Source: Paraglomus brasilianum
Lineage: Eukaryota
Length of the DNA stretch: 56,557 nucleotides
Assembly: GCA_910592345.1 (NCBI GenBank)
Contig: CAJVPI010000090.1
Coordinates: forward strand, 1-56,557
Direction: 5' to 3'
Shown: positions 1 through 53,600 of the stretch, piece by piece
Position numbering within the stretch: position 1 is the stretch's first letter
Layout: every line of letters begins with the position of its first letter
The notes under the pieces: model-generated
What the model saw: the letters and a program-made list of their open reading frames with translations, nothing else
Database searches by the model: none
Told to the model about the DNA's origin: nothing
Position numbers and translations under genes: made by a program

Positions 1-1
1 T

Positions 2-955
2 TACAACAAAAATACGAAATTAGCAGAACAACAGAGAAAATTGGTAGATGAGCATTTTATAACAAGAGGTAAAGCTGGTTATTGTAGTGTTGATGCTACT
101 GCTCATTACAGTTACGATTGAGCGCAAAATGTTCACGTGCCCCATTCCGATCAACAGGTAAGTAAGATTTATTATCTCAGTCCGCGTAAAGTACATTTAT
201 TTGGTATACAAGATGAAGCAGTACGCGAACAAATTAACTACGTTCTTGATGAAGACGAAATTATCGGCAAAGGTCCTAACGGCACACTGAGCATGGTATT
301 CGATGGGATTAAGCGATTGAATAAAGGTGAAAAATATTTAAAGATTACTTGTGATAACGCGGGTGGACAGAATAAAAATAATGCGACCATTTGATTTTAC
401 TTATATTTAGTAATTTGCGGTTATTATGAAAGTATCGAATTAAATTTCATGGTACCTGGACATACTAAATTCAAGTGTGATGGTAGTTTCGGATTAATTA
501 AAAAACTTTATCGAAAAACAACGGTAGATTGTGTAAAACATATTGTTGAGGTTGTGAAAAAATCGAGTACAGCTGGATTAAATAAAGCTCAGTGTTATGA
601 CAGTGGAGAAGGCTTTCAATACTTAGATCTTAATTCGGTATTGGGAATTTTCTTTAAAAAATTGAATGGTTTGCAAAAATATCAGCATTTTGTATTTGAA
701 GCAGCTAATCTTGGAATTGTCAAAGCTCAGTTGGTTGCTAATGGTGCTTTTACCGAATTTAATTTGTTAAAAACGATAAAAGCAAACGTTTCTGAAATTA
801 CCAAAGAAATTAAATCCTTTTCCATCTTAGTACTAACCCCTCCTCCTTTGGATTACAAAAGACAGGAGTATCTTTACCAAAACATTCGTGCATTTGTCAG
901 AGATGAGTTTAAAGACATTACTTGTCCAAGACCAACCTATACTGGCAGTGAATAA
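2..955 (+). CDS. Sola-like DDD transposase (DUF7869-type), 5'-truncated by the window edge; continuous only if TGA=Trp
   Basis: One frame from nt 2 to TAA at 953-955 with only two TGA (119-121 in YD[W]AQN, 392-394 in NATI[W]FYLYL). This joins track ORFs 137..394 and 449..955. Motifs DWAQN..P..YYLSPRK..LFGI, DNAGGQNKN and PGHTKFKCDGSFGLIK match Sola-type transposases. Confidence 0.75.
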
Positions 956-1123
956 AATATTTAAACTAAATGCTCTCTGTCTAAACTTTTACCAAATGTT
1001 GCTAGATTCACCCATGTTTAATTTTTAAAGCCTAAATAAAAAATATTAAAATAACTATATACTTAATATTTCTCATAAAAAGGATAAAAGTATATTAAAA
1101 AAATAAATAAAAATAAATAAAAA

Positions 1124-1918
1124 ATGGTAAACACAGAACTCCAAGAAAATAATAAGAAACTATTAGAAGAAAACCAACAATTAAGGATAATTGCTCGTGA
1201 TAGTCGGGCTACAATATTTGAAAGAAAAATTGAAAATGAAAACTATGTTCTTAAAATTGCTGAATTGAAGAATTATAAAGAGCAGGTCGAAGGCTTAAAA
1301 AGAAAAACAGTAGAACTTTTATCGTTTTGACATAAGGAAGAAACTCGAAAAGAAAAAAACAATTGAGGCAGTTGACGTGAAAAGGGGCAATGGGATTTCT
1401 GGCATGAAGAAGAATTAAAAGGATTAATGAGCAGAACAGAAGAAGAACTAAATGAGGTTATTTTTGCAGTTATCAAAAAATTGGAAGACGATGTTAAAGA
1501 CCGCACTGAGTCATTAGAGGCGAGTGGAGAATGAAAAAAATATCAAGCAGAAGATATAAAAGAAAAAAACAGGAAACTCAAAAGTGCTAGTGAAAAAATT
1601 TCTTATCTAGAAGCCCGAGTTGAAATTTTAGAAGAAGAGTCAAGTCAAAAGAGCAAAAGGATAGAAAAGCTAAGTAAGCAATTATCTGATAGTGAATCAC
1701 AAAATGAAAGTTTAAAGAGTTTACACTATTTAAACAGCAAACCTTTGCCTGCTTTACCTGTTGAAGAAGAAAGTAAATCATCCTCAATTAAATGGAGCAT
1801 GTTTAAACAATTAAAAACAAAAACAAAGGTTAAGATTCAAAAATTACTAAGTCTAGTCAAAAAGGAAAAATTTCACAACCAAGAAATGATTGCTCAAGTA
1901 GAAGTTAAGTCTAAATAA
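1124..1918 (+). CDS. 264-aa K/E-rich coiled-coil hypothetical protein in genetic code 4 (Mollicutes-like)
   Basis: ATG 1124 to TAA 1916-1918 with 4 in-frame TGA, 3 TGG and no TAA/TAG. Intronless, very A-rich, ends IAQVEVKSK. Confidence 0.75.
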
Positions 1919-1931
1919 ACGAGAAATTGTA

Positions 1932-2561
1932 ATGATAATGAGAGAACTGGAATACACAGTTTTAGAATTGGAGAAAGAAAGTAAAAAAACTTGTGATTTT
2001 TGCTCTAAATTTGAAAACAAAAATAACAAGTCTGTTCATCAAATAAGAGTCCGTAGCAAAGTAACTGGGGAATGAATTTCAGATGACATGGTTTGTGAAA
2101 GATGTGAAGAAAAATATTGGAATGATGAATTGTTAAAATGTAATAGATGTGGTAGATTGCAAACTAAGTTAGATTTTGATATTGTTACTGGTAAGAATAT
2201 TTGCTACTGTATTAGAAACAATGAAGTCTTGGAAGAAAAAGAGCTCCCCCTCTTACCTAATGAAGAAATAAGCCAATCTACCTTTTATGAACGACAAATA
2301 AATAAACTACAAGAAGAAAAAGCTGCAGCTGAGGAAGCACTAGAAATTGAAAGAGAAGAAGTAGCCAAATTTCAAGAAAAGTCTGAAGAGTGAAGTAAAA
2401 GACAGAAGCAAGAGTTATTGGATAAGATAAAGAGTTTAGAAGAAAAGATTAAACAATTAGAAGAGGAAAACAATTTATTGAAAGGGCAACAGAATGTTCA
2501 AATTGCTCAAATTGAAGTTAAAGAAAATAAGAGATGATCTTGATTGAAAATAAAAAAGTAA
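1932..2561 (+). CDS. 209-aa CxxC zinc-binding plus coiled-coil hypothetical protein in genetic code 4
   Basis: ATG 1932 to TAA 2559-2561 with 4 in-frame TGA. Contains CDFC, CERC, CNRC and CYC motifs. Starts 13 nt after the previous stop; C-terminal IAQIEVKE resembles the previous ORF's end. Confidence 0.75.
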
Positions 2562-2694
2562 TTTGAAGACATTTTCTATTCATTTAAATTAAAACTGTTT
2601 CAATAGTCAATACAAATAATATTTGTTTTTCTTTAGTATTAGATAATTAAACACCTGATTTTTATTGATAATTATTAAAGAAATAGATATTGCT

Positions 2695-2952
2695 TTATGT
2701 TTCTAATTTTCGTTTCTTTCTTGGTTCATCATAAGTTGGTGGTAATGTTCGTTTAATGGTTTTTATTTTTCGTTCTTCTTGATAAATTTCATAAGTAATC
2801 TTTTCTTTATCTAGATATTCCTGGAGTGTTTGGGTATCATTGATTTTAAAAACATAGGGAGCAATTTTTTCTCCTTGAGCTTTTTTCAGAATGCTTCTAA
2901 TAGTGCTGTAATTTTTGGGTTCCATAGTGGATTTAATGTAAATTAGTTTCAT
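2695..2952 (-). CDS. 85-aa basic hypothetical protein (MKLIYIKSTM...) carried near the transposon end, copy A
   Basis: Track ORF. Near-identical copy at 6796 and a decayed copy near 9290-9460; ends in an NLS-like PRKKRK. Confidence 0.55.
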   Translation of the reverse strand: MKLIYIKSTMEPKNYSTIRSILKKAQGEKIAPYVFKINDTQTLQEYLDKEKITYEIYQEERKIKTIKRTLPPTYDEPRKKRKLET

Positions 2953-3163
2953 ATTATAATTTTATATAGAGGTAATCCTATATTAATCCTGTTATGGTTT
3001 ATATTTATCACATTCTGGTATGATAAAGTGAACATTAAATTAACAGGTCCATAAGTTATGAATGAGCACCATTATTTACTTTTCAAAATGTCATCAGTCA
3101 CACTGGTCAATTTTACAGCCACATCATAAGCAGCCTCTCATTTATGTCACATAATAGAATGTT

Positions 3164-3194
3164 CACTTTGTCTGGTTTTGTTGCAGTCTGCCCC
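3164..3194. repeat. Putative transposon terminus CACTTTGTCTGGTTTTGTTGCAGTCTGCCCC, copy A
   Basis: Same motif at 6930-6959, 9666-9696 and 29462-29492, each followed by ATAT or AAAT and then unrelated sequence. Confidence 0.8.
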
Positions 3195-3240
3195 ATATTA
3201 GCATTTCAGAAATTCTTGAAATAGATTCTATACCATAAAA

Positions 3241-5456
3241 TTAATAGAGCTTACCCTTCAGATATTGATGTTTTAATTGGCACAATTGGGATGTTTCTGG
3301 GAGAGTGACTTCAACATCTGGAAGGCTGCATGAAATGCTAGCTCCTCTAAGAAGTTCCTTCAATTTGATTTTCTTATTGCCTGCTAAGCAGAAAAGATTG
3401 AGGCGCAGTGCCCAGAATTGAGCATTAAAATCTTCCCACTGCCGCCAATGCATTGGCTCTTCATAGTTGAGCATCTCTTGCCAAAAGATCATCTCATGTT
3501 CATTGGAGTTGCGAACAAGTGCACTTGTCCATATGTAAGGTATTTGGATTTGGTATTCCTTACTTGTTGTGTTATACAGGACTAGATTAAGTATCCCCCT
3601 TGAACTAAGCTCCTCATAGGTGGTAAATTCCTTGCCAACATTGATTGAATCAGTTTTTAGAACTGGCAAGCCCAATATGGCTTTTGCAAGAGTTTTGGTC
3701 AACCAATTTGAGTAATGGGTTAACTTGTAGTCATCCAGGAGCTGGATTTTGATGGCATTCATGATTTCTGAGAGATCAATATCATAAGGATTTCTCAATA
3801 TACCCAAAAGAAGGTGAAGTCATTCATAGAAATATTCCAAGGTTCTAACATGACCTCCAATATCTCCAATGCAAAGTTGATAATACTCATTGAGATGGGC
3901 ATAGTTTTCATCAAGTTTGATGGCTTTGCCAATTTTGATTGCATCTTTATTCTCAAGGAGAGGTAATGGGAGACGAAGTGATTTGTGCATAGACTCTGTA
4001 ATATAATGCTCCAAGGGTCCTTCAATTGTTCCAGCCAGAATAGGAATTAAAAAAATATTTGGAGGTGATGCACACAGTGTTCCTCCAATGGTGTTTATGA
4101 GTTTCTTACATGCCTCCTTGCTCAAGGCATGCAATTTGTTAAACTCATCGATGTCAATAACTACAACCAGCAGACCAGGAGCTTCATTAGAAGTTGTTAC
4201 TTGTTCCTTGATATCAGCATAGATAACCTCAAGGGCTGTGTCCAGAGTAAGTTTTGAAATGTCTCCAATCTGGCAGACACCACGGAATTTGGTAAAAGTG
4301 TAATTATCCCCAGTTTTATACTGAGGTCGGAAGTACTCAAATAGAATACATAGCACAAAAGATGACAGGGCACCAAGTTGCATATCTATATCATCAGCTG
4401 GGGATCCATTTCCATAGGTGGTGTTAATAACAATCATATTCTTGAAAGCATTTTTGAATTCATCATTAGAGCTGTTGGCACGTTGCAAGAGCATCTTCTC
4501 AATCTCATCAAGAAATCTGCTTTTCCCTGTTCCAGGCCCACCAGCCAAGACAGGGATGGGATGAAGTTTCTTATCACCTTCCTTGCGGCATTTAAATCTG
4601 TCCTGGACTCCGTTTCGGGCCAATATTGGGTCACCATCCCAGAGGGTGCCAATAGTGGTTTCTCGTCCACAGAGCTCAAAGATTTTACCGAAGGATTTAA
4701 CAAGCTGAAAAAATCAATTAGGCTTTGGCTGAAGAAGCTAAAATGTACAATCAAAAAATTAACAAAGCGGAGAAAAGACGCACACGGTTCCGGCCACGAT
4801 TAAAATCGAATCTTCGCATCCAGTTATACACCGAGCCACTATTGTTCCAGTTAGGTGCTAAAGTCAATGGATAAAAGATTAAACGGGGATGAGCAATTAG
4901 AAATGACGAACATGATCCGGCATCATAAATAAAAATGTCACTCACCAGTAGTGCCAGCTGGAAGGACAGAAGGTGATTAACGGGACGGGAGGCAAATGAG
5001 CGAGAAACGTCGATTTGGTATGGTTGGTAGTGGGAAAGCGGATAGATGATATGGATGGAATCGCAACGAGTACGGATAGATGGAATGAATAAATGGCGCA
5101 GTTACGAATATCCAAAGTGCAGTCGAAGTGACAAACGTTGTGACAGAGAGGAATGCGGAGGCGGACAAGATCCAGCACCATAAATAAAAATATAACTCGT
5201 GAAAATATTCGGAATGCAGTCATGGTATTTACACCCTTAACTCTCTTCTATGTATGAAACCCATATTGCTACGTCTACTCTACCCTAAGTACACACTACT
5301 CTACGTCCCCAATGCCCGAGTCACAAAGTCGTTACCTGCAGAACCTTGTTGGAGGCGGAGCTTCTCCAATTCCAACTTTTTCTGCTCGAGCTCCAACAGA
5401 CGATCAAGGTTTTCTTGAGTTTGTAAATCTTGGGGAAGTTTCTTGAAATCTTCCAT
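3241..5456 (-). pseudogene. Crinkler-like P-loop NTPase gene, spliced, frameshifted and cut off by the transposon end
   Basis: Walker A GGPGTGKS and Walker B-like VIDIDEFN in ORF 3820..4623. The reading frame shifts between 4434..4754, 3820..4623 and 3241..3807. Upstream coiled-coil exon from ATG 5456 (MEDFKKLPQDLQ...) ends in CAG|GTAACG. Confidence 0.65.
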
Positions 5457-6283
5457 GATGATAAAGACACGTAAGAAGATGTGCTGTGCGATGTGATCTA
5501 ATGTACTAACGCGGCTTAATCAATGACGTATTATGAGGAACTTTCTAGACCTTTTACTGTTCCCTGTATGCAGAATGTGACCAATGATAATTAATGCGCC
5601 GTTGTTTATTTAAAGATTTGAGTATGCATTGCAAGATTAATATAATAAGATATTTACAATAATTGATACATGTAATTTGTCATATTGACTTAAAAACAAC
5701 GTATATCGAAGATTCACTAGAGCGATTGCATGGGAGGAAATACTCGGACCCAAAGCCATTGATGAGTATCCCTATACTTTGGTCGCTCTAGTGAAATCTA
5801 TGCTATATATTATTATAAATGCTATTAACGTCTATATTTCCCTTCTCCTTTTCTTTATCTACCCATTTTTTAAGCGCTTCAATCGGTTTTCTCGATAATT
5901 GGCCTTTTAGAATAAAAGCAATAATGCTTTTTCTTCCGTGCACTTTGTGGTATTTTGTTAAATACGACTGAGTCCACAAACTTGATAAATATTTTCGCGC
6001 AATAAGCAGCTGGTATTTTGATTTAATTGTCCTTGATTTTATCGCTTAAAAAAGCGTTTGAGTTATAATTCGGACTTGGTTGTGAGTTTTATGGTAGAGC
6101 GAAGTATCAATGATAAGCAGCAGCAGCAACTCGCAGAATATTTTAATAGCGAAAGTGAACATTGAGTGGGATTGTTATTTGATTTTTGTAGATTATAAAA
6201 TTATGCTTTTGATAATACGGTTGCAATTCGATCGCTTGTAATTTGTTTCTTTAATTGTGAAATGGTGTGGTTTTATACCAATT

Positions 6284-6796
6284 TCAAAATTGTAAACATG
6301 CATCATAACCATGGACTTGAAATTTGCCGATCAAATCTAATGATTTATTCGTGTTTCCTTTTTTATACTTACCCATTGTTTCTAAAACGATACAGGTTTT
6401 GCTGATCATGAATCGTGTCGGATTTGTAGTACTTGGGCACAGCGAACCAAAATTATGTATTGTTGCTATTCTTACTCGAACAGTATATAAAGAATTATGG
6501 AAAATTGTCCCGTTATCGATAATAAAGAAACAGATATTTGCTTTATGTTCTAGCTTTCGTTTCTTATTCTTTCTTGGTTCATCATAAGATTCTCGTTTAA
6601 TGGCTTTTATTTTTCGTTCTTCTTGGTAAATTTCATAAGTAATTTTTTCTTTATCTAGATAGTCCTGGAGAGTTTGGGTATTATTGATTTTAAAAATGTA
6701 GGGAGCAATTTTTTCTCCTTGAGCTTTCTTAAGAATGCTTCTAATGGTGCCGTAATTCTTTGGTTCCATAGTGGATTTGATGTAAATTAGTTTCAT
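6284..6796 (-). CDS. MKLIYIKSTM protein copy B, C-terminally extended by a 1-nt difference at the stop
   Basis: First ~80 aa nearly identical to 2695..2952. GAA ACA TAA in copy A reads GAA CAT AAA here. Confidence 0.45.
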   Translation of the reverse strand: MKLIYIKSTMEPKNYGTIRSILKKAQGEKIAPYIFKINNTQTLQDYLDKEKITYEIYQEERKIKAIKRESYDEPRKNKKRKLEHKANICFFIIDNGTIFHNSLYTVRVRIATIHNFGSLCPSTTNPTRFMISKTCIVLETMGKYKKGNTNKSLDLIGKFQVHGYDACLQF

Positions 6797-6929
6797 ATAT
6801 TTTATTTTTATATAGAGATAATCCTATATTCAGCATATTGTAATTCAGGTAGAAGTTTACTCAATAAAGTTATATTTTGGTATGATATAAGTTTGTATAT
6901 ACTAATAATAAGATACAGCTTTGAGGAAT

Positions 6930-6959
6930 CACTTTGTCTGGTTTTGTTGCAGCATGCCC
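6930..6959. repeat. Putative transposon terminus, copy B
   Basis: cactttgtctggttttgttgcagcatgccc followed by atat. Confidence 0.75.
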
Positions 6960-7308
6960 ATATGAGAATGGCATCACACGCAAGAAAAATAATGACATTT
7001 TGCTAATCAGAATGATCAAGTTATTTCTTTGCTCTCTCATGTTTACGGAAAATCTATAGCTAATTTGTTTCTATTGCTAATATCTCTAACACAAGATTCT
7101 CATCCCTATACTCTTCTTCTACACTAGATTTTCGAAATAAACAGAATTTTTGTCTATCTATATCACATGAATTATTATTATGTAGAAAGTATCGACTTTA
7201 GCTAAGTTTCGCGAACATATATGAAGAATCAAAAAAGAGGTATTCACAATCACCAGCACACTTCATTTTTATAATATTCCACACCGTCTCATAACCAATA
7301 AGTTTGTG

Positions 7309-7950
7309 GGCAAAGGTCCTAATGGCACACTGAGCATGGTATTCAATGGAATAAGAGATTGAATAAAGGTGGGAAAACATTTAAAGATTACCTGCGATAA
7401 CGCTGGTGGTCAGAATAAAAATAATGCTACCATTTGATTTTACCTATATAGTAATTTGCAGTTATTATGAAAGTATTGAATTAAATTTTATGGTGCCTGG
7501 ACATACTAAATTCAAGTGTAATGATAGTTTTGGATTGATTAAAAAACTCTATAGGTAGATTGTATGAATCATATTGTTAAGTTGTGAAAAGATCAAGTAC
7601 AGTGGGATTAATAAAGGTTAGTGTTATGATAATGGAAAAGGTTTTCAATACTTGGATCTTAATTCTGTGTTGGGAATTTTCTTTAAAAAATTGAGTGGTT
7701 TACAAAAGTATCAGCATTTTTGAAGCAGCCAATCCTGGAGTTGTCAAAGCTCAAATGGTTGCTAATGGTACTCGTACAGAATTTAATTTGTTGAAACTAG
7801 AAAATCAAGTGTTTCTGAAATTACCAAAGAAATAAATCCTTTTCCATAACTCCTTCTCCTTTGGATTACAAAAGGCAAGAGCATCTTTATCATGATATTC
7901 GTCCATTTGTTAGAGACGAGTTTAAAGGCATTACTTGTCCCAAACCAATA
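7309..7950 (+). pseudogene. Decayed second copy of the Sola-like transposase
   Basis: Colinear with ~267-935 at high nucleotide similarity but with several deletions and frameshifts. Keeps the same in-frame TGA in gctaccatt-tga-ttttac. Confidence 0.85.
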
Positions 7951-8108
7951 TTGGATAATTTTATATTAAATAAAAATTGCTAAATGCTTTTAGTTAAATT
8001 TTTTCTCTTGATTTAATTATTACAATTATTACAATTATTAAAATAATTAGAAGATCTAACAGTAATCCGCAGCCAAACACTCAGTAATTTTTCTTTCTCA
8101 TACTTTTA

Positions 8109-9170
8109 TTAAGTTGGTTTTCTAATTCAACCTTCGATAATAAGCATCAGTTTTTCCGCAATTTTTTCGTTTTCCATTGAATCTCTTATTTCCCTTTTTT
8201 CGCTTTCTCCTCGGCTTCGGCGCCTGTCTTGTTCAAATTTAGGATGGAGAGTTCGTAAACAGCTCTTTGAGAACAAACTTCTCCATATTTTTTCAATTTC
8301 AAACATCTCGGCTGCCTAGTCATCGAAATCATATAGCCATCGCAACTTAGTTTTTTGCTTCTCTTGCATTACTTTTCCTATTTGAGCTCAGGTTTCAAGA
8401 TCGATAGCATTTATGTCTTTTGGTAAGCGATTTTTCGTTTCAATAACTGTATAACCTTTTGCTATATCTCTGCGAAGTCTATCTAGCAAAGACTTTGTTG
8501 GGTTCAATATAAATACCTTCTGTATTGGCCCCCAAAACTTTGCTTACCTGTTTTTGTTCTTCAGTGCTTATTTTCTTGGAACTTTTAGTAGTTGAGTAAG
8601 TTCCCTCGTTAACCATGTATTTAGGAACAATTCGGCAATAAAAATGATTTGTTTTGAAGACCAAACCTCCTACCGGAATGCCGATTCGAAAACCGGGAGG
8701 AGAATATACTCTATTTATTTCAGCAATGTTATCATTTAAAACAGGTAACATATCGTTTCATTCTCTTTGGCTTAAATCTTTATTGCGCTTTTTGGTAACA
8801 AGTACACAATGTCCCTTAGATCTAATTTTGGAGTAAGTAAAAACACTATTTTCTAAGTCAGTCACTAAGGTTTTGAGTAGCGATTTTCCATCATCAGCTT
8901 TATCACTTAAGACTTTTACGATATCACACATTACACGTGCAAGCTGTGCATTAGGATTGTGTTGACCAGAACACCATTCTGTCAAGTGAAATGTTTTTCT
9001 ATTTCTTTTGCAGCTCTTTTTCCATAATCCGCACAATAACTGCACTTATGGATTTTGGTTTCTGACAATACTCCACATTGAGAACATAAAAATGTTCTCG
9101 GTCTCAGCGGCTCATGCCGCGTGTTTCAAAATCGCTATTTTCATAATTAAATCTTGCCCTTAAATTGTTG
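8109..9170 (-). pseudogene. Decaying code-4 cargo gene with an N-terminal CSQC..CSYC motif
   Basis: Track ORFs 8758..9045 and 8479..8751 join in frame through TGA (SQRE[W]NDMLPV). Further TGA=Trp occur downstream, plus frameshifts and one TAG. Confidence 0.55.
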
Positions 9171-9665
9171 CAGTAAAAGTATTTGTAAAGAAAAGAATTA
9201 TTATTATTGTTATCTTAAAATGATTTTGCCAAAAAAAATTTTACGATTGTAAGTCCACTCAACAAACGACTGTTGGATTTGTTTCTTCAAGTTTTCGTTT
9301 CTTTTATTAGTTATGATTTTTCGTTCTTCTTGATAAATTTCATATAGTAATTTTTCTTTATCTAGATATTATTTGAGAGTTTGGGTATCATTGATTTTTT
9401 TTTAAAATACTTCTAATTGTACTGTAATTCATGGTGGACTTAATGTAAATTAGTTTTATATTAATATCTGCAAGCAAAACGTTTATCTCAACCAAGTTTA
9501 CAATTTGATACCAAGTTAATACAGATTTTAAAATGCAAATAAATTTATTCATGATGAATTCTGACATGGCCATAGCTGTTACTGTGCCACGAATAATAAT
9601 AAATCAAAGCTAATCAGTCATTCTAGCCAATTTTTCAGCCACACTAGCTCACATAATAGAATGTT

Positions 9666-9696
9666 CACTTTGTCTGATTTTGTTGCAGTCTGCCCC
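9666..9696. repeat. Putative transposon terminus, copy C
   Basis: One mismatch to copy A, with the shared subterminal tcacataatagaatgtt; followed by atat. Confidence 0.8.
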
Positions 9697-10794
9697 ATAT
9701 TATTTCTCTGGTCACCATTATTGAAACAATTACGCTTTTTCCAACTAGATAAACATTGGAAAGAAATTTCTTTAACGCATAATAATAAACTATCACAACC
9801 ACAATTAAAACATCTTAAATTTTATATTTAAATAGTTTCCTCCCTGAGTATTGTTTCTCTTCTATGGTTGGTGAGCTAGTACGCTTTGATCAGCTTGGGT
9901 CCATATGGTTTCTAATTACACGTTCATGAATTTGTTTGCAGAAATTTACCGGAAAGAAAGATCTTGTTCGACCGACTATCAATACTAAATTCCCCATTTT
10001 TAGTATTAGCATACAATTTTTAACATTCAATATTAATATGCATTTTCCCATATACCATTCTAATCCCTATAGGCTTCAAATTTTAACTATCCATGCTTCA
10101 TAAGATTATTATTTCACCAATTTCCACGAGTACTTATTTATTTTTTCTGATACTCGTATGTTTTTGAAGCAATAAGAATTTATTTTTCTATGATTAACTC
10201 ATTGCGAATACTAAGATCGTAAATTTGTCATTGAAAGTGAACTCCTTCAATGACTAATCTGTCTTGTGATTATAAGAATTTGAAATATGAAACCCGCTGA
10301 CCCGTAGAAGACGTCTTTCGGTCATCTTCAGAAATATTCATGTTTGATATTTGAAAAAGAGTGGTTGTTGTCATTGTCAATTATTGAAGTTTATCAGCAT
10401 TGTTAAAGTATCATTAAGGTGACAGCCGCTTTTTGGCTCCTTTCAGATTTCAAAAATTAGATTGTAACTGAAGGATGTTTACAGTTTTGCAGACTTTCTA
10501 CCTTGCACGAAAACACAATAAACGTGAATGTTCCAGAAGCTTCTATTAATTCTAAAGATATTCCCGTAACAAAGTTATCAGAAAGCGAGACACAAACACA
10601 TGCCGTCAAACTTCCATTAAAGAGAATAACAAGCATAAACTTGGAACAGACCGATTGTAAAAACATCAACCCTTGAAATTAGAATCAAAAATTACAAACG
10701 CTGTATATATAGACGAAAACTACTTGAAACAAAGGTAAATAATCAGGTCTGAATTTATTATGTAATGCGCAAATAATGTCGCTTGCTCGTGTTC

Positions 10795-11693
10795 TCATTG
10801 TGACTCATCCTCTTCGAGAATCTGCGGGTTCCGAGCAAATTTTCTTCTCCAGGCGCGCTTCTCCTCCTGCAATAGAAATACAACCAATGTAAGAGACTAG
10901 ATGCTGTTCTTGATTTGATTGAACAGCACGGTAAAGATCAAGACTCTATTACAATACTATTATTCAATTATACATTAATCGATGCTGTCTTATCACTAAA
11001 TTCTATAAGATAGGAACCAAATTCATTTTAATTCTCGCTATCGCTAAAAGACTAATTAATCGTTTTCGATTTTTGTTAAATTACGCTCACTCATGAGTCG
11101 TTCTCGCCTTCATTTGTTATATCCAAACCTCAGATTTTCCATGCAGCACTCCCTTGAATCGTCCAGTGAATTCATAGGTTCCCATTAACGTTCCGATGCC
11201 CACACATGCACCTAGGCTCAGAGGCCAAGAATTTGCTTGATTATGTCATCGAATGTTAAATTAAACAAATCAGTTCTACTGTATTTAATATGAGAGAGAC
11301 ACTGATACACTGCGAAAAAATTCTACCTCTTATTCCCGCTGCTAACCCGGCCGCACAACCTGCAGCCGCACTATTGACCCAATCGTCACTTTTTCGTATG
11401 TTAGCCGTAGTTGCACGTGTTACCGCAAATATCCCACCGATAAGTGCTGATTGTATGGAAAGAAAGGTTAAGGTTATTTATTGCCTGGATTGTTATACTA
11501 ATGCCTTATTTTCTTTACCAAAATGTGCCATTGATCCTCCTGCTTTAGTAAGTACGCCAGACGCTCCTACACCCTCTGTCTGCAGCGAGTTCTGCAGAGC
11601 AGCAACCACGAAACCAATGCCAGCAAAAGCTAAACCCGCTTTTAGTCCATCATTAACTGGATCTTTGGCATGATAGACTTCTTCGGCGGTCAT
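10795..11693 (-). CDS. Complex I accessory subunit NDUFA11/B14.7-like (Tim17/Tim22 family), 4 exons
   Basis: Exons translate to YHAKDPVNDGLKAGLAFAGIGFVVAALQNSL, IGGIFAVTRATTANIRKSDDWVNSAAAGCAAGLAAGIR, a GACVGIG..YEFTG exon and EEKRAWRRKF..*. GT-AG introns; TGA stop at 10795. Confidence 0.8.
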
Positions 11694-11756
11694 AATTGTT
11701 GGTAGAGACAGATATTGATATAACGGTCAAGAAAATGGTTAAATTTGTCAATCATT

Positions 11757-11766
11757 GTCACGTGAT
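11757..11766. promoter_or_regulatory. E-box GTCACGTGAT upstream of the NDUFA11-like gene
   Basis: bHLH-type palindrome ~65 nt upstream of the ATG. A similar CACGTGAC lies at 13605-13612 upstream of spermidine synthase. Confidence 0.35.
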
Positions 11767-13728
11767 TCGTATAATATTTTTTATTTCAAACAATTAATTT
11801 AGCAAGATCGAAGGCCTGACGCTCGTATGTCCGCCATGCTCTTGTCGCTTTTACTAACTAAATGTATATCAATGTCCAGCTTCCAATAGATCTCTCTTTT
11901 CATATGGTACATAGTCAATACATCGGTATGAATTGCCAAACTCGCTATGCTAAGAATGCTAATTACAAATAATAATAAAAGTTTTATTACCCGAGAAAAG
12001 CAAATCAATTATATTTCTTTAGTTAAGGAAGACGTCCTCGTTCCTGAGGCTGAATGGGAAGCTATCCCTGATCAATAACATCGTCAAAACTTTAAATCGA
12101 TAGATTCGTTAAGATAGCTGTAACAATTAAACGCTTGTTCCTAAGAATGAATGCAAAAATTACTATAATTGTATGCGCATATCGAATACGCAATGTCGAT
12201 TATTACTTTATCCGCTCGTAGTTCTTGCCGGATATTGAAATGCCCCATAAGTTTATTATTATTATTATCCTGTTTAACCGATATTTCCGTTCTAAGCAGT
12301 GATTCATTTCCGACATTTTAAATTCCCATAATCTGTCTTGCTTCCCAGTGCTAGATTTATTGAAATATTTATATACACTTGATTGTTGCCTGATCAAATT
12401 ACTGATCTTGTATTATGTTTAACATTAATAACAACATGCTTGCGTCACACATAAAAACCAGTCCTTTATGACCTGATGGATTATGATCTAATTTAACATT
12501 TGAGCAAAATCCTACCAATTATAATTTACCTGATGTATGATGTCGAGTCAACAATCGCGGGAGAGCAATCGATCGCTGACTTTGGGATTTAGCTATTTCC
12601 AAACGGAGCGGTAGCTTCTCCTAAAGACAGTTAGTGGCCGCTTTACTACTCACGACCTGATGTCGATCGGTAGGCACTAATCCTAGACGGTTATTCGACC
12701 TCGAGTTGGTCGACTATTCGAAGCCTATAGGTTGGGACATGCTTGTATCTATCTAAAACGCGTTTTCACCTAATACTAAGCGAATCCTAACTTTCCCTTT
12801 AATGTTTATTGCGGCACATGCGTGTATAGTATCGCAAAGCATTTGAATCGTTGTATCGTTTCAAAAATCCTGTTAAAAGGGCTCTCCTAAAGTACATAAA
12901 AAAGAGAATCGTCATGCGCACTTCCCAAACTTGGAAGAAGCTGGAGAATTTCTTTTTGTCAGTTCTACAAAAGATCTTATGTTGATATGTTAAGTCAATC
13001 AAAAATTGGTAGTTTATTACATTATAATGTTTATGTATTTAGAATCGTGAATAGATTTAATAAAGAGATTATTACCATTTTCATTATATAATATTACTAA
13101 TGATAAGCATCAAAACTAATATCTTATGACGTATCAGTTGTACATGGCAAACCGATACCTCGGCGTTTTAGTAGAAGTCTATGTTAATAATATACATTCT
13201 CGTTTTGTTTTTGTTTTTTTCGCGCAATATAGTGGTTACTTCTTTGAGTTATATTATCTATACAATTATTTAGTAAGCGTGCTTTAAGTAAATATGTTCA
13301 GCGAATATAGACGCTTATTTGATCCTCGATCTAAGCGCGGAGGTTGTCGGTATTGCACGTTGCTGATCGCTCTGTCTCGAACGTCTTTGGGAGTGTAAAT
13401 AAAATCCCGGTCTTCTCTTAACGATTATCGTTGGTCAGAGACTATTTATCCCAAAGAAATTGCCTATTATACCTCACGTCAGTCTCTTGTTAATGACAGT
13501 AACTATTACTTAGCAATAAACATTGTGAATATGGTTATCAGTCTTATCAGAGGGCTATCTGCATCGTCATACAAGTTTACAAGACATCCATTTGAAAGTT
13601 GGCCCACGTGACAATCATCATGAGGGTTGAAAATTTTTGACGGATTATAACTACATATAATCCGGATTCAGTCATCTCATCTATATATTCATCTTATATG
13701 CGTCGTTTCTTCGATAAATCCTTCCAAG

Positions 13729-23726: not shown

Positions 23727-24735
23727 GTTTTCTGCAGAGCCTTGAGGGATAAACAAAATCAACAGGGTGAAGCTGGTCGGGTCATTTGTCGCGAAGTAAA
23801 TTTGTTTATTATTATACAACAAGCGCGACGCGCCAAATATGGAAAGATCGAATGATTGGTACAACGCTTACCATTATTACTATTTACCCAGAAGGAATAC
23901 AATGCAAAATGGTGTTCAGACTAATATTAATGTATGGGCCATAGTTATCATATGATTCTGTCTCTTTTTCTGCTCTTCTTTTGCTCTCTATATCTGAATA
24001 ATCAATAATTTCTAGGACAAATGGAGAAACGATGGTGCAGTCTCAAATTAATTTGTGTTACAACAATAACAACCAGTATTCAAGATTCTCTTATTTATTA
24101 ATATGTAGTCTGCTTTCAACTTCCTGAATCCCTCATTAGTTTTTTCCAATTCTTCCACTTTTTCATCTCGATCTGCTTGGTTTCTTCACAAGATTTTCAT
24201 TATAGATGTAGTCTCAATTTCTAATGATTTTTCTGCCATCTCTGCATGTAATTTATCTCTTATTATTACTTTACTATTTAATTCTTGTAAAACTCCAATA
24301 AAGTCTTAGTATTAGTGAGTTTTTATTTTGGTATCTAATACTGCTGCAGCAATTTGTTCTGTTTGTTTTTCAATAATTAATTCCTTTTTCTTCAATCCTT
24401 TTCTAACTCAGCATTCTTTTTTCCAGAAGCATTTGCTTTCCTTCAGTTCCTTATTTTCCTTAAAATAAAGGTCAAAAAAATGTCCATAATATCATACTTT
24501 GTTAACAAAACTTTTTACAACATTCTCAGGAGTAAATTCATCACTAAAAACCACTCTTCCAAATCCAGTTAAACTTCTTTCTGGATAACTTACTCAACCA
24601 TTTTTAGGTCATTAAAATCCTTGTAAGGTTTTAAAGTTACAACTCTATATTCTTTAACAGCATTATCAACTGTATTTCAAATTCTTAACTTCTAAACAAC
24701 CTATTATTTTCTTGAAGTTTTCCTAATATATAATA

Positions 24736-26705
24736 CACTATCTGGACAAAAGTATTAGTCACCCTAACTTTGTTAATTGCTCAAAAATGTACATAATAAT
24801 TGGGACTAACATTTTATATGTTATAGTCTAACTTCTTCTGAATCTATATATAAGACTAATACTTTGTTGGCCAGCCCTTGCTTGCAATACATGCTTTGAC
24901 CCTTCTAGTACTAGGCATACTTTTAGTTAAATTCATTAAAACATTGTTGGGAATTTGGCCCCATTCCTCCTGTAATGCTGTCTCAAGTTCCCTTACATTT
25001 TTAGGCAAAATCGAACGGTTTCTAATAGTAATAGGCCTGTTCAATTCTGTTCCGTTCCAATTTGTGTCAACCCTGATTGGCGGCTTCAAAATCACATGAT
25101 TGGATCGAATCGGCACGAAAAATTTGCAACGTCCATTCGTTCTTATCACACATGCATTTAGGCCTCAATGGCAAACTTCTCTAGCATAGACTGTTTAGAA
25201 AAATTTAGTACACCCTCTACAATGGTGTCTCAGCCCAAGAAGAGGGGGAGACCAAGGAAAACAGTGCCTGAAACTGGGAAAGGACGCGTTCTCTCACCTA
25301 AACAACTGGCCAGAAGACAGGACATAATAATAACTCTGGTGAGATCTTTGTCACCTTTTACAACATGTTTGTGTTTTAATTACCTGTGTTTTCTTCCTGT
25401 CTAGCTCCTCCTCTTCGTCTGAAAGTTCGTCGCGCTCGTTTTATAAAAATGTTGACAAATAAAAGGTCGTATTGCGGAAAACGGTTCTGAGGGCTTTCGG
25501 GAATATGGAGTTTTTGTAAAGAATAACGCTTGAAGTCTTTGAGTGGTGTTAAGACTTACGATTAGCATGACGTATCCCTCCGTGATTTCCGATGAGTTAC
25601 ACCACCATTCCAAGCCAGCTGCGATTCCGTTCACAACCGCTCAAAGAATGTAGGACCAAATAACGAAACAGATTTCGATATATCGGGTCAGTTACACCAG
25701 AAAAGAAACAGATTTTACCCGATGCGGACGAATTTGTTTCCTTTAATTTAATCCTCATGTATTTACTAGTTTTAGAGTATAGGGCAGCGCAGCAGGCGCA
25801 GAACTCGAAATAGATATACAAACAGTCATAATTTCCTTAGCAAACGGTGTCTTCGGTTGAACAGATTCGATTTTGAATCTGATATTATATTCCTTAATAT
25901 TATTAGTTGATCAAATCCGAACTTATATTGTATTCTCTGATCTATATTGTGGAGAACCGATAAAGCTTGAAAACGCTTTCTTGATCGGTGTTTGATAGAA
26001 TCGATCTTGTCCTCGATTTTATCGTCCATTGACAATAAAGATTTATAATTAATTCAGATAGCGCAATTGTTAGAATAGTTTCACAACCTATAGGCTTTCG
26101 ACCTAATCCCGCCGAGAGAAATAGACGCATTTACTCGAGGTTAATTATAAATCCAGAGAAGGCGTACGCAAGAACCGAACCTAGTATCGTGAGCGTTTAA
26201 ACCCAACTTAAAGGTCACCAAACGTCAATAGCGGATTTACCGCAGTATAGAGGTAATCAAGGATCTCGTTGGAAAAAAGCTAAATCCCAATGTCAATATT
26301 CGTTCCGCTCTCCCCCGAGTATTGGCTCGACAGTGGGATATGTGAAACTAAACGTGGAACGGGAACGCGGAATTTTGTCCTCAATTTGCACCGATTTCGA
26401 TACAAATTTGATGTCGAACAGAGCTAATGCGTCTTTCCAGTTCTGACCGTGAATGTTCAATAGGTTCAAATCTGGTGATTGGTTTGGCCAATTAGGTAAA
26501 GTTCTGATCTTCCTTTCTGCAACCCATTCATTAACATCTTTTGCAGTGTGAATGGGTTTTGAAACAAATACCCTTTTTCACCAAAATCTCTACTAATCAA
26601 TGGTAATAAATGGGTTTCAAGTATTTGGATATAATCGAATCTGTCCATTTTTCCTTCCACTTTTACCAATGGGCCTAAGCCTTTGCCAGAAAAACAACCC
26701 CACAT
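24736..26705 (-). mobile_element. Tc1-like transposon remnant (3' half), interrupted by a nested insertion
   Basis: End TA|CACTATCTGGACAAAAGTATT at 24734. Transposase pieces WGCFSGKGLGPL..WPNQSPDLN.IEH (26705-26424, frameshifted) and LETALQEEW..SMP..RVKACIASKGWPTKY* (25026-24856). Confidence 0.85.
25027..26424. mobile_element. Unclassified ~1.4-kb insertion inside the Tc1 transposase
   Basis: CTAAT occurs on both sides (25022-25026, 26424-26428). Short imperfect inverted ends GGCCTGTTC / GAACAGAGC. Deleting the insert restores ELERRI-RNRS. Confidence 0.65.
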
Positions 26706-29090
26706 ATCTTGTTCGGATCTAGAGAGAGCTTGAAACGCCTCACGTAATTCGGTAAACTTTTCTTTTGGAATCTTTTTGTGCAACCACAATTACGGCCTAT
26801 TTCCAAGAAACGCATGGCTTTTTCATATTCAATCAAACCATTATAATTATAATTCTCCATATATGGGTAATCCTATATGTCTTTGCAATTACTTCCGACT
26901 TTCAATAATGAATATGCAAGCATCACTATTTCTATTCAATTTTGCAACATCTCGGTTGATCAAATAAATCTTGCGTTAGTTTTTTATATTCCGTGGTATT
27001 CCAAGCAGGTGCAAACAAGAATGCTGCAACTTGATAACTACAATGATAGTTATGTTCATTTGATGCTAAACTATGAAACCAGTCTTTTTGGTCTCTACAG
27101 CTATTGTAATAATAACTTTTACATAACCTAATTTATAAAGTTATCATAGCTTCAATGCTTCTTATTCTCATCTATGACCAACTTTCTTTTCAGTATTCTC
27201 TTCATCGTGGAATATTACGGTCGGAAATTAAATGGGGGTTTGGGAGAACGATTTATCTTTCGCAAAGGTGTGTTAGTCAACCGAGGGGCCAGGCTTAGCT
27301 CGTACTAGCGCCCTTACTACGATAGTTGTACAATTAAGGCTGAATTAAACCTCAAGTGACCTATTTTAATTATGCGCGCTTTTCACTCCCGTCCGAGTTT
27401 CAAACACTCGTGAATACAAATAAGGGTACCTTCAATAGAACAATAACTATCGCGAGGAACTTTTATTCAATAGAACAATAACAACAATTATTCTATTAAA
27501 GAATCGAAGGGGAATAATATTAAACAGGGCTATCTTCGATTTGTTTGTCGACTAGTCGGTATCCGTCACTTGTCTCACTAAACTAATTAAACAATAATAA
27601 ATAATCGTCTCGATAATTAATTATGAACTCTCGTTCCGTTATTCACGTAATTGGGACAGCTTACTAGCTTGATCAAATCAATGCTCTTCCAGGTGAGCCG
27701 TTTATTGGAGTGTCCGGTCTAATATTAAACTATGTATATTTATAAATAAGGGATTTCCGGGAGAATCCTACTAATATCAGTAGTATTATTTTATTTCACA
27801 ACAATATTCGAACTTGTAAGGAATATGGGCTACTTATATAACTTCGAGCGTTGCGGAAAAAACGCAACGCTCTTTTATCTATTTCTAGAAGAACACTTAA
27901 ATATAGCGTTTTGCAACAATTTTGTTTCCTAATGTAGCGGGCACCCGTTCGTTGCGGATTTTTCGAAACGCTTTTATTACTAAATTAATGCTTTTTGTGA
28001 AATTAGTGTTGATCACGGGTTTGTTTGACTGCGGAGGAAGATTTTATTATGTGACCTACTTATCTGTCGTAAGTAAAGACCGATTTGGAGTGGAAGAGTA
28101 AATTAGATTTAAAATCCCTTGCAATTTTGTTGACACGTTCCTGTCAATGCAACACAAATGGGCTGTGCATTTCTATCTATGGAAACAAATACTAGTACAT
28201 GCATTTACCTCTATAGCCACAAAATGTCGAAAGTTTGACTCAAGTAAGGAATTGTTGGTTATCCATAACAAGCCGTGTAGTTAGGAAAGGCTACTACTGA
28301 CCGATCTCCTGTAATCCTCTGTGAATAATATGTTAGTAAAGTGAATAAATGTGATTGTAGACAGTATTTCATACCAGTGGATCGTTGACATTTTCGACAG
28401 CAGAATGAACATTTTCAATTGTCGTCGCAAAGGTTTCTGCCGTGATACTTATTAATAACCTAGTGACTTTAACCTGCAGTTGATGAAAAGAAGCGCATTA
28501 ATAAAACGCCAATTTATTAGAGCAAGCAAGAAAGCTACAACTTGTGCAACTGATCTTGTAGATTTCTGTTCAGTTCGGTTTATTCCAAAACACGTTGACG
28601 TCGTGAAAAGTAACAATAAACAAATTAATAAGTAGTAAAAGTATAGCTCATAGTTTACACGGAATTGCACACTACCAAAGCAGTACAACGGACATTTCGA
28701 CCATAAGGTAGATAATGCCGTAGTTGTAAGGGTTCCATTTCCCATAGCAGACATTCCGACCATAAGGTAGACAACATTCCGATGTCACCGTAGCTCCTTC
28801 TGCTAACGTAGTGTCAAGAAAACGCTAATAGGAAATTAAGGCACATACTTTGAAATTTTTGTTCAGCTGACGAGCGACTTTTTTCGTTTCTGTCGAACCA
28901 TACTCCACAAAATGCCTTCAGCTTGTAGGATTTCTTCTGAAAAGAAAAGGTAAAATCTGTTGGCTTAGAAAGATGTAGTTTTTAGGTTAAACTTTGTCAA
29001 AATAATCGCTCTACTTGTTTTGTTAATAGGGACGCGCACCAGCACTTTTCGATGCATAATCTGAAGTCACATGACAATTTCAACTATTAA

Positions 29091-29436: not shown

Positions 29437-29492
29437 TCAGCCACACTAGCCATTTTTGATTCACTTTGTCTGGTTTTGTTGCAGTCTGCCCC
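29437..29492. repeat. Solo transposon terminus, copy D
   Basis: Exact 31-nt motif at 29462-29492 plus cagccacactagc shared with copy C; followed by aaat. Confidence 0.8.
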
Positions 29493-50656: not shown

Positions 50657-53600
50657 GATTGTTATGTGTGTAGTTAGAGAGAGCGACCAATTTAGTTTAC
50701 CATCCATCAGTTTAAGATTAAATACCAATACGGAAATTTATCATGTGATATTAATTTTGACAAATAAATAACGCCATTAACCAAGTATCATTAATATTAA
50801 TATTTTCAACAGCTTTCTGACCCTCTTTCCCTTCTGGCCAAGCTGTTCCCAAGGAAATCTATTACCACTCTTTCTCTCAACCAACTGCGCCTCAAAAAAT
50901 CTTGTCACTTGCGTATATAAAACTTTAACCGTATTTTGCGCTTGTTCTAACCTAAATCCGCAAATTTGCATTGCATATTTATAAGTATTATGACGTAAAA
51001 TCCACAGTTTAATAAATGGTAATAAGGTGGTTAATTCATTGTTGGAAAAATAAAAATACTACTAAAGTATATATTCAGGCGTGACCAGATAACATCTAGC
51101 TCACTATTTAATTGCTCTTAAGACCGCTTTCTGCTCTGCATGTTCATTTTAAATGATTGGATTTACTTTTGTGATCGATCTTGAAAGCACAGAGTGATGC
51201 ATAGGAAAAACAAAAATACTTGGTCCCGAAGCCATTGATAAGTATATTCTTCGGTCACCCTGGTGCAAACTTAAATTTTATTATCTTCTTTATTATCACT
51301 ATCATCGATTATTTTTCATGGTTTACATTTTTTTTCGTCAATTCAACATTGTTCTTCGAAAGTAGAAACGACCTTGCAGATTTCAGACGTCACTCCGATA
51401 AATAAAACTTCGGTTCAGTTGGCCATACAATAGTAGTAGGCCCAATTTAATAGAAGGTTCCTAATTATAATACCGTACATCATCGAATAACCCACCAATC
51501 AATCAAGTATATAACAATCATGACGACCTTTAACAAAAGATAGTTGGGAGGAAGGACATTCTCAAGGGCAGAGCTGCGAAAGCATTGCTAGACAGGTAAC
51601 GAACGGTTTTGTGACTCGGATGTTGGGAATAGAGTAGTGAATACATAGGGAAGTTTCTAATTAAATCAAACTTCATAATAATCAATGCAATTTTTGTTAC
51701 TGGCCTCCGATCATCATAAAGTAATTCTATAGGGAAGGCCACATGCACGAATGGGTTTCCGTGCACCCTTACGTAATAAAAATTTTCGTGTTGTTCTATG
51801 AAAGAGGACGAAAAATAAAACAGCAAATATTAGTTTCATGAAACTATGCGTACTTCTGCGGTTCACATGAGATGGGTTGAAATGAGAATCCCGTTAAAGT
51901 TCGAGTTACAGGTTTGAGGATATAGCTTTTAGTGTAAATATCAAAAAGAAACCCCCATTAAGCTATAATCTGTTGATGCAAGCCTGAATGGCTTCCTCGT
52001 ACTCATTGCAGTCTGAACTTCTTTACTGACTGTGATTCACAGCCCAAATCTATAATCGCTGCAGCTGGGACTTCTGTAACATGCTTTGAATGCTGCAAAG
52101 ACATGGGTTTGACTTGTGACAGTAGTCGTATATTACCATGCTAAATGTTCTAATGTACTGTGTTGTCTGAGTAGTGAGTTGTTGCGTAGATAAATATTCC
52201 AACAGCTTAAACGAGGTAATTCTATGATCGGATATATAATTATTTTTCCGTTGGGCTTGCCCATTGTTAGCGTGCAAAGACATTGTGCGGTACAAACGTA
52301 TTTGCAGAACGACTGATCTGATCATTGGATACTTTGCGCATACTATAATGTAAAAGGTGACTGGTTCGAGTGGAATGTGCCTCGTCTCACGAATTTTAAC
52401 GTATAGCGAGTTCAGTTATCGTTATAATGATTTACAATGCGTTTACATGCAATATGCAGACTTTGATGGTTGAGTTCGACTCGCGCGAATCCACGACCGA
52501 GATCTCATATATACTGTATATGGACGACTTGGTTGAAAATGGGGTTTTTCTCCCGGATCGGTTATCTGGCTGCGTGATAGAGGTGGGGCGGTAGTGATTT
52601 GGTAACGTTACAGGCCCTTATTTTCAGCAATGAGCAGATTCGTAATTCCTTCTCAGCACAGACTGTAAGCAATGTCGTTATGACGCGAGTATTGTGTAAG
52701 CATTTCTTCGAGATGTCATCTACTACGTCACAAGCGGTATTTTCTGGAAAAATTTCAAAGTATTTATTGAAGAAAACAAAACAATAAACAGCTCATCCTT
52801 GGAACTCCTAAGGTTCCGCTTAGTCGTATTCTTGTTGATTATTTCTTGGCGTTTCTATTATAAAATTTCCCTATGTCTAATATTGATGGTGTCTTCTATA
52901 TCAATACAACATACTTGAATAATCTATACACGCATATGTCTATGATGGCACATATTAATAGGGATGCTAAAGCCCTATTCGTCTAATTCACTTGATGAAC
53001 AGAATCAGATAACGAACGGCAACCGTCAACCCCAACCATTGCAATCCATCGTGAACAGCGTCAATAATATATAATTTTATGGGCATCGAATATGTTACAT
53101 ATCGACCAAACATTACTGAACTTGTGGCTAAATAGTTGAAAATGTTAGCATAATGACAAAACAGCAAGATAAAGGAGTGTCTATAATGCCAGCTCGAAGC
53201 CCGAAAGTTCAACACACTTACCGAGCCACAAGGCCATAGCAACAGTGACAGCGGTCACAAGATCATCGATTTGACATATCATCAGTATATTATAGATCAA
53301 TACGGTCAGCAATGGTGTTGTTGAAAGCCCGGCCTACGATAACATGCATCTACTAAGTACGTCTGCCATCAAGCGACAACGAGCAGAGACTTCACATACC
53401 ATCGCCCTCACTAGGGGTATACCAGAAGCAACAACTTCTCGCTCAGCAGGGGTCAAAAAGTCATCGTGTGTCAAGTTGATTTGTAATTTACCGAACACAT
53501 TATGTGCATAGTACACTGAAGTCATAACTGCAAGAAGTTTGGTCTAACTTAGCATATAGAACATATATAATCATCTGCGAGGGATATGTATCAGTCGGTA

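What the first reader, a model, noticed from the sequence alone, without database searches (positions are those of the whole stretch)
1..9700. Family of cargo-carrying Sola-like transposons that may shuttle between endosymbiont and host
Seen: one 31-nt motif ends three segments (3194, 6959, 9696) and recurs at 29492, always followed by ATAT or AAAT. Inside the first three ends lies the same small ORF, then different cargo; two segments also contain the transposase. Established: Sola1 elements create 4-bp AWWT target duplications. Inference: these are right termini of a Sola-like element with variable cargo. A largely eukaryotic transposase family in code 4 would imply residence in the endobacterium and insertion into host DNA. 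No clear left terminus is visible in the window.
Basis: partly seen in the sequence, partly recalled or inferred. Interest (0 to 1): 0.75.

Follow-up and report, generated by a model that had tools for sequence, protein, structure and literature searches.

The report
Two-code transposon linking fungus and endosymbiont
A family of jumping genes sits in many copies in fungal chromosomes, yet its enzyme and several passenger genes read correctly only in the genetic code of mycoplasma-like bacteria that live inside such fungi, so it likely multiplies in the bacterium and lands in the host nucleus, where it also carries host genes.

Summary
The motif is real: four copies (ends 3194, 6959, 9696, 29492), none expected by chance. 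It is the tip of a roughly 420-500-bp terminal inverted repeat, small ORF included, of a Sola-like transposon with a DDD catalytic triad; AWWT follows 97 of 117 ends. The four are not all right ends: 29492 is a left end, 6959 likely one, so the cluster is nested debris. Transposase and coiled-coil cargo are open and under purifying selection (transposase dN/dS about 0.1) only with TGA=Trp, while the host uses TGA as stop; Crinkler-like cargo is standard-code. No outer flank looks bacterial (1 of 29 scored, itself another element end). The nearest clade holds Candidatus Moeniiplasma proteins. Best reading: it likely breeds in Mollicutes-related endobacteria (MRE) and inserts into host nuclei. 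Not shown: a copy in MRE DNA, both ends of one copy on one contig, a return trip. The scan noted this family before in two other genomes.

The parts
2..955 (+). Transposase, 3' 317 codons (cut by the window start); DUF7869; three catalytic Asp intact; 2 TGA at conserved Trp, 0 TGG
1124..1918 (+). Code-4 coiled-coil cargo ORF, 264 aa (4 TGA, 3 TGG)
   Evidence: same gene in L045, L016
1932..2561 (+). Code-4 cargo ORF with Cys clusters and a coiled coil, 209 aa (4 TGA, 1 TGG); the commonest gene next to right ends
2695..2952 (-). Small ORF (85 aa) inside the terminal repeat; predicted ferredoxin-like fold (low confidence) and a basic, NLS-like tail; under purifying selection; no Trp, so readable in either code
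2695..3194 (+). Right terminal inverted repeat (about 500 bp, 91% like a left end of L072); conserved tip 3163-3194, then ATAT
3241..5456 (-). Broken Crinkler-like host gene (family label recalled; P-loop exon, standard-code Trp usage 6 TGG to 1 TGA, splice-donor-like sites), pointing inward from the 6959 end and cut by the element that ends at 3194
   Evidence: same slot holds other Crinkler-like genes in L077/L072 and L073
5709..5805 (-). Conserved structured non-coding motif with a pseudoknot; goes with the end class that carries the membrane-anchored ORF; no Rfam match
6513..6959 (+). Second terminal repeat (small ORF copy starting at 6796 on minus; tip 6929-6959, then ATAT); likely a LEFT end of a minus-oriented copy
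   Evidence: inference from gene order in L077
7186..7950 (+). Decayed transposase, about residues 327-583, with frameshifts and stops
8533..8886 (-). Decayed relative (39% identity) of a code-4 HIT-family cargo gene that is open in L058
9297..9696 (+). Third terminal repeat (decayed small ORF; tip 9665-9696, then ATAT); right end; unique host DNA follows
24441..24635 (-). Remnant of a code-4 coiled-coil cargo gene of a fourth, minus-oriented copy
26700..26860 (-). Transposase 5' fragment of the fourth copy, cut by a Tc1-like insertion
29461..29492 (+). Tip of the LEFT end of the fourth copy, then AAAT; no partner end found near 23.9-24.4 kb

Best explanation
This is a family of cut-and-paste Sola-like DNA transposons with long terminal inverted repeats, present in many copies in fungal nuclear DNA, whose transposase reads through only with TGA as tryptophan and is therefore likely made by Mollicutes-related endobacteria (MRE) living in the fungal cytoplasm. 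Shown: the layout left repeat - standard-code host-type genes - transposase - code-4 cargo - right repeat (pieced from two overlapping contigs, about 6.8 kb), AWWT beside the ends, selection under code 4, fungal flanks. Inferred: the lineage multiplies in MRE, and transposase-DNA complexes released from the bacteria integrate at AWWT sites in host chromosomes, often inside earlier copies; the small protein with its basic tail, encoded in both repeats, may help nuclear entry; nuclear copies cannot make transposase, take in Crinkler-like host genes and decay. A return from nucleus to bacterium is possible but untested.
For: Of 26 codons sampled at the five conserved Trp positions, 17 are TGA and 5 TGG; all 6 other stops are in the decayed window copy. 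dN/dS under code 4: transposase 0.07-0.13 in 11 of 15 pairs (4 saturated), Cys/coil gene 0.09-0.43 in 8 of 9, and TGG/TGA interchange between subfamilies; window versus L045, 12 synonymous and 5 non-synonymous changes, p=3e-6. 19 of 41 internal C-termini among 157 close database relatives stop one residue before a conserved Trp. All 9 transposase and coil genes tallied have 2-6 internal TGA; a host gene in the window ends in TGA, and 0 internal TGA were seen in 3 Crinkler-like exons from loci. Cargo is intronless and closely packed and includes a code-4 HIT gene. Nearest clade (SH-aLRT 98, quick tree) holds two Candidatus Moeniiplasma proteins; 5 C-halves and 2 N-halves of that clade break near residue 250 at Lys-rich runs, as bacterial IS frameshift sites do (inferred from proteins only). 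AWWT after 97 of 117 ends against 7% background; two ends share one ATAT in L034 and L062. MRE are annotated with the Mycoplasma code (PMC10507103, passages) and carry transposases (PMC4916391, passages).
Against: No copy with bacterial flanks: 1 of 29 outer flanks had a code-4 gene, and that one is another element end; GTDB scans found none of this family, though MRE may be thinly held there. The Moeniiplasma-labelled proteins are only 51-52% identical and lie in the sister clade, not in this family; the AU test does not reject grouping the family with two unnamed outgroup rows instead (p=0.16). Several full-length relatives exist whose codons I could not see, so standard-code autonomous copies are not excluded. 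Bacterial-labelled relatives outside MRE exist, so the family need not have come from a fungus. No contig holds both ends of one copy. No route for DNA from MRE to nucleus was tested.
Confidence: 0.6

Rival explanations
1. The family lives only in the nucleus and its messages are recoded there: UGA is read as Trp through a suppressor tRNA, A-to-I editing (UGA to UGG) or a readthrough signal such as the structured RNA motif.
For: All scored flanks are nuclear; intron-bearing host genes ride inside; the small protein ends in an NLS-like tail; an unexplained structured RNA is carried.
Against: The host ends a gene with TGA; no tRNA in 10 of 10 loci scanned; several genes would each need 2-6 recoding events; the RNA motif lies by the standard-code side, not behind the code-4 genes; HIT cargo and Moeniiplasma kin are unexplained.
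Confidence: 0.13
2. The family came from MRE once or a few times; some nuclear copies then gained all-TGG transposases and now move the TGA copies in trans, with no continuing bacterial stage.
For: TGG occurs at some Trp sites (5 of 26); full-length proteins P0001, P0186, P0189, P0190, P0195 are in the database with unknown codons; no bacterial flank.
Against: TGA-bearing genes show purifying selection on short recent branches with every TGA kept, and new TGA codons arise at lineage-specific sites; passengers moved in trans would drift. None of 6 intact or partial transposase frames read here is TGA-free.
Confidence: 0.13
3. The code-4 compartment is the fungal mitochondrion or a mitochondrial or cytoplasmic plasmid or virus, not a bacterium.
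For: Fungal mitochondria also use table 4 (named in the table's title); no MRE flank found.
Against: No mitochondrial gene among the flank ORFs inspected; 0 hits in viral contigs; nearest named kin are Moeniiplasma proteins.
Confidence: 0.07
4. The first 9.7 kb is MRE contamination or a chimeric assembly of repeats.
For: It sits at the contig start; some Glomeromycotina assemblies are contaminated by MRE (PMC10507103, passages).
Against: Junctions are bridged by contigs; 120 independent metagenome loci show the same ends beside fungal DNA; intron-type genes lie between the repeats.
Confidence: 0.03

Closest known systems
Sola DNA transposons (Sola1; Bao et al. 2009, not held, recalled; AWWT hallmark read in passages of PMC3845634; Sola1 and Sola3 in Rhizophagus in passages of PMC5751038)
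   Same: DDD-type transposase in an RNase H-like fold, terminal inverted repeats starting with G, AWWT beside the ends; 33-36% full-length identity to animal-type elements, 2 of 4 of which showed a perfect ATAT duplication.
   Different: Needs TGA=Trp; repeats of 420-500 bp that encode a protein; carries both bacterial-type and host-type cargo; subgroup not established.
Insertion sequences and other mobile elements of Candidatus Moeniiplasma glomeromycotorum (passages of PMC4916391)
   Same: Code 4, intronless packed genes, sister clade with Moeniiplasma-labelled proteins.
   Different: The transposase belongs to a mainly eukaryotic superfamily; every copy seen is in fungal DNA; one survey found no conclusive transfer of eukaryotic DDE transposons to prokaryotes (bioRxiv 2021.09.26.461848, passages).
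Pack-type TIR elements such as Pack-MULEs (recalled)
   Same: Long terminal repeats enclosing captured host genes; nesting.
   Different: Here the transposase sits in the same element and is written in another code than the captured genes.
Single-gene transfers between MRE and Diversispora epigaea or Mortierellaceae (review passage in PMC8227670; passages of PMC10507103)
   Same: DNA exchange between these endobacteria and their hosts, both ways.
   Different: Those are isolated genes with no named vehicle; 'transpos' occurs 0 times in the main text of PMC10507103.

Membership tests
Sola superfamily | DDE/D transposase with RNase H-like core | tested here: met
   D310 and D431 invariant, D389 nearly so in 50 rows; model pLDDT 86; best Foldseek hits IstA, TnsB and integrases, weak (E 2e-4); DUF7869 (its link to Sola is recalled)
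Sola superfamily | Terminal inverted repeats on both sides of the transposase | tested here: inconclusive
   Left and right ends match over 343-506 bp at 87-93%, and L077 and L072 overlap almost identically for about 3 kb, but 0 of 121 sequences hold both ends of one copy
Sola1 | AWWT target preference | tested here: met
   97 of 117 ends, background 7%; hallmark per PMC3845634 passages
Sola1 | Same 4 bp duplicated on both sides of one insertion | tested here: inconclusive
   ATAT flanks both L077 and L072 ends, but ATAT is 78 of 117 anyway; head-to-head ends share one ATAT in L034 and L062; no empty site seen
Sola1 versus Sola2 or Sola3 | Clusters with reference transposases of the subgroup | not testable with these tools
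   No Repbase set; defining paper not held
Eukaryotic Sola elements | Transposase translatable in the host's standard code | tested here: not met
   2-4 in-frame TGA in each intact frame read
MRE insertion sequence | Genes in the Mycoplasma code | tested here: met
MRE insertion sequence | Copy flanked by MRE chromosome | tested here: inconclusive
Pack-type TIR element | Host genes captured between the repeats | tested here: met
   Standard-code kinase gene with splice-type sites between left repeat and transposase in L077; other host-type genes in the same slot in L073 and the window

The most novel reading that the evidence does not exclude
A true two-compartment shuttle: a transposon of a mainly eukaryotic superfamily that has become a resident of the endobacterium, is translated only there, sends copies into host nuclei with the help of a nucleus-targeted protein encoded in its own terminal repeats, picks up spliced Crinkler-like host genes, and returns to the bacterium. 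It would be the vehicle behind the two-way gene traffic reported between MRE and their fungi.
Probability: 0.25. Interest if true: 0.92.

Novelty: new variant of a known kind. Interest (0 to 1): 0.74.

Why it matters
Gene exchange between MRE and mycorrhizal-type fungi is reported, but no vehicle is named in the papers I could read, and a broad survey found no conclusive case of a eukaryotic DDE transposon living in a prokaryote. An element that is under selection in one code and inserted in genomes of another gives a dated, countable marker of endosymbiont-to-nucleus DNA flow, a record of past MRE infection in fungi that have lost them, and a possible tool for delivering DNA into these hard-to-transform partners. 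It also explains many mis-spliced 'fungal' gene models and truncated proteins in databases.

Tried and rejected
GTDB scans: nothing with the window protein; with an alignment only 29-39% relatives, 22 of 23 loci from one assembly labelled Stappiaceae whose elements group with a sponge protein, which I treat as likely mislabelled. Viral contigs: 0 hits. No RNA holder listed. Test for selection after host-gene capture: L072 and L077 share the kinase cargo, but 32 of their 33 differences in the transposase lie in one 300-bp patch and the rest is identical, so this is one element with a recombined or chimeric patch and says nothing about a return trip. A partner end for 29492 was sought and not found. 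The membrane-anchored ORF of left ends gave no hit in the window, so calling 6959 a left end rests on the RNA motif and the inward-pointing Crinkler-like gene. Rfam, tRNA scan and promoter or terminator scan gave nothing above chance. The small protein's fold match (best Z 7.8, single-sequence model, pLDDT 66) is only a common arrangement. The careful tree did not finish; both trees are quick trees. Summed contig depth is not a copy number. Literature: 10 searches; 'Moeniiplasma + transposase + horizontal gene transfer' and 'endobacteria + fungal genome + TGA + tryptophan + transposase' each returned 0 papers; five papers were not held, among them the Sola definition and two MRE papers, and their supplements may bear on novelty.
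Full report
Observation. The motif is present four times in the window, all on the + strand, and never in 100 shuffles. The ends fall at 3194, 6959 (one C short), 9696 and 29492 and are followed by ATAT or AAAT. Beyond 9.7 kb the window is fungal nuclear DNA with interrupted genes (spermidine synthase, an ABC-F protein and others). The lineage is likely Glomeromycotina or a near Mucoromycota group; this is inferred from the named relatives of the transposase (Ambispora, Diversispora, Geosiphon, Gigaspora). No whole genome was held.

The motif is a transposon end. Conservation stops sharply after a run of C. The next four bases are AWWT in 97 of 117 distinct ends, ATAT in 78, against 7% in flanks; in L034 and L062 two ends meet head to head on a single ATAT. 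AWWT is given as the Sola1 hallmark in passages of PMC3845634. The linked protein is DUF7869, about 587 aa when whole, with three conserved Asp, a confident model and weak best fold matches to IstA, TnsB and integrases.

Anatomy. Among 47 locus ends with 900 or more inner bases, 13 have the transposase pointing at the end (right ends: transposase, code-4 cargo, small ORF, repeat), 1 has it pointing away (L077), and 7 carry a membrane-anchored ORF, none of them together with the right-end genes. Left and right ends match for 343-506 bp at 87-93%, so the repeat is long and holds the small ORF. L077 and L072 overlap nearly identically for about 3 kb and imply an element of about 6.8 kb: left repeat, membrane-anchored ORF, a Crinkler-like kinase gene with splice-type sites, transposase, two code-4 genes, right repeat. 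No single contig holds both ends (0 of 121). In the window 3194 and 9696 are right ends, 29492 is a left end because a transposase start at 26860 points away from it, and 6959 is likely a left end because it encloses the RNA motif and an inward-pointing Crinkler-like gene. The copy ending at 3194 appears to have cut that gene. The best-holding sample has 1,703 contigs that lie on 1-12,000, of which 1,170 are under 99% alike: many diverged copies in one organism.

Two genetic codes. At the five conserved Trp positions 17 of 26 sampled codons are TGA and 5 TGG; the 6 other stops all belong to the decayed copy at 7186-7950. Under table 4, dN/dS is 0.07-0.13 for the transposase (11 of 15 pairs; 4 saturated), 0.09-0.43 for the Cys/coil gene (8 of 9) and 0.06-0.19 for the small ORF (9 of 9). 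Independently, 19 of 41 internal C-termini of 157 close database relatives stop one residue before a conserved Trp, as expected when a standard-code gene caller meets TGA. Genes upstream of the transposase use TGG, and a host gene ends in TGA. Damage such as C-to-T mutation would have made other stops as well. The working lineage is therefore translated where UGA means Trp.

Where it lives. Every outer flank inspected is fungal: kinases, Tc1, hAT, a DNA polymerase subunit. A simple score finds a code-4 Lys/Glu-rich gene in 1 of 29 outer flanks (L034, another element end) against 22 of 45 inner stretches; the search was seeded on one motif and capped, so rare bacterial copies could be missed. 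GTDB gave no member. Two proteins labelled Candidatus Moeniiplasma (51-52% identity) lie in a 14-row clade that is sister to the 16 rows of this family in a quick tree (SH-aLRT 98), but an AU test does not reject an alternative grouping (p=0.16). In that sister clade the protein is split near residue 250 at Lys-rich runs (5 C-halves, 2 N-halves), which suggests a bacterial-style -1 frameshift; I could not read the DNA. More distant relatives include a sponge protein and a cluster with Desulfobulbaceae-labelled members, so the deeper origin is open.

Mechanism. Shown: TIR element, AWWT targets, code-4 selection, nuclear insertion, nesting, mixed cargo. Inferred (0.6): multiplication in MRE, with transposase-bound DNA reaching the nucleus and integrating there; nuclear copies are mute, collect Crinkler-like genes and decay. 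The small ORF, kept at both ends, free of Trp and so readable in both codes, with a basic tail, is a candidate helper for nuclear entry; that is a guess from sequence. The return trip is untested: my one test failed because L072 and L077 are the same element apart from one patch. Three different Crinkler-like genes occupy the same slot in three copies, which fits either repeated capture by mobile lineages or insertion into resting nuclear copies. Rivals are nuclear recoding (0.13), an all-TGG nuclear helper (0.13), a mitochondrial or plasmid home (0.07) and assembly error (0.03).

Known versus new. Sola elements in Rhizophagus are known (PMC5751038 and PMC11075540, passages), as are MRE transposases (PMC4916391, passages) and two-way gene transfer with hosts (PMC8227670, PMC10507103, PMC13315312, passages). 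A survey of DDE transposons found no conclusive transfer to prokaryotes (bioRxiv 2021.09.26.461848, passages). Ten searches found no description of a code-4 Sola-like family (listed under Tried and rejected); the Sola definition and two MRE papers were not held. Two earlier notes of this scan reached a similar reading on other genomes; I had stated my reading before seeing them and do not count them as evidence. This window adds the two-ended long repeat, the mixed left and right ends, the host-gene slot, the split sister clade and the RNA motif. Verdict: real, a new variant of a known kind, surprising and testable; the bacterial home is likely but not shown.

Noticed in passing
window:15636-19251 (minus): A GCN20/ABCF3-like ABC-F gene carries an intein of about 434 aa with a homing endonuclease, inserted in the first Walker A motif between Lys and Ser (Pfam Hom_end_hint E 5e-23; C...HN-S junctions). 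'GCN20' and 'ABC' occur 0 times in the main text of a 2018 survey of eukaryotic inteins (PMC5784728, passages; supplements not read), so this may be an unlisted intein host.
   Followed up: partly
window:5709-5805 and 51196-51277 (minus); L009, L014, L022, L026, L033, L047, L072, L099: A conserved structured RNA motif of about 90 nt: closing stem, inner hairpin and a 6-bp pseudoknot; 93.6% of cells pair and 10 of 26 pairs change on both sides in 10 sequences (structure drawn by me from these sequences, so the counts lean towards it); G-U pairs favour the minus strand; no Rfam family. Candidate ribozyme or 3'-end signal.
   Followed up: partly
window:2953-2985, 26860-26880; L072:6062-6094; L073:3943-3969 and 4317-4343: The same short palindrome precedes both the transposase and the small ORF: a possible shared operator or promoter.
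   Followed up: partly
proteins P0432, P0485, P0045, P0057, P0410, P0416: The Moeniiplasma-containing sister clade is split near residue 250 at Lys-rich runs, suggesting a programmed -1 frameshift.
   Followed up: partly
L121-L143 (22 of 23 loci): An assembly labelled Stappiaceae holds many copies of a standard-code relative with 32-bp terminal repeats, 2 of 4 with a perfect ATAT duplication; it groups with a sponge protein, so the assembly is likely animal DNA under a bacterial label.
   Followed up: partly
protein cluster of P0417: A 98-member cluster of Sola-like transposases includes Desulfobulbaceae and Thermodesulfobacteriota MAG proteins: a possible free-living bacterial branch of the superfamily.
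   Followed up: no
window:24812-28200: A Tc1-like element, itself split by a 1.4-kb repeat (other contigs skip 25021-26424), and further high-copy repeats at 27300-28200 lie inside the fourth copy.
   Followed up: partly
window:22168-22707: Three to four tandem 135-bp coding repeats inside a host gene.
   Followed up: no
window:51602-51627 and 56080-56139: A second copy of the Crinkler-type junction motif and a short piece like the transposase start region: further remnants.
   Followed up: no
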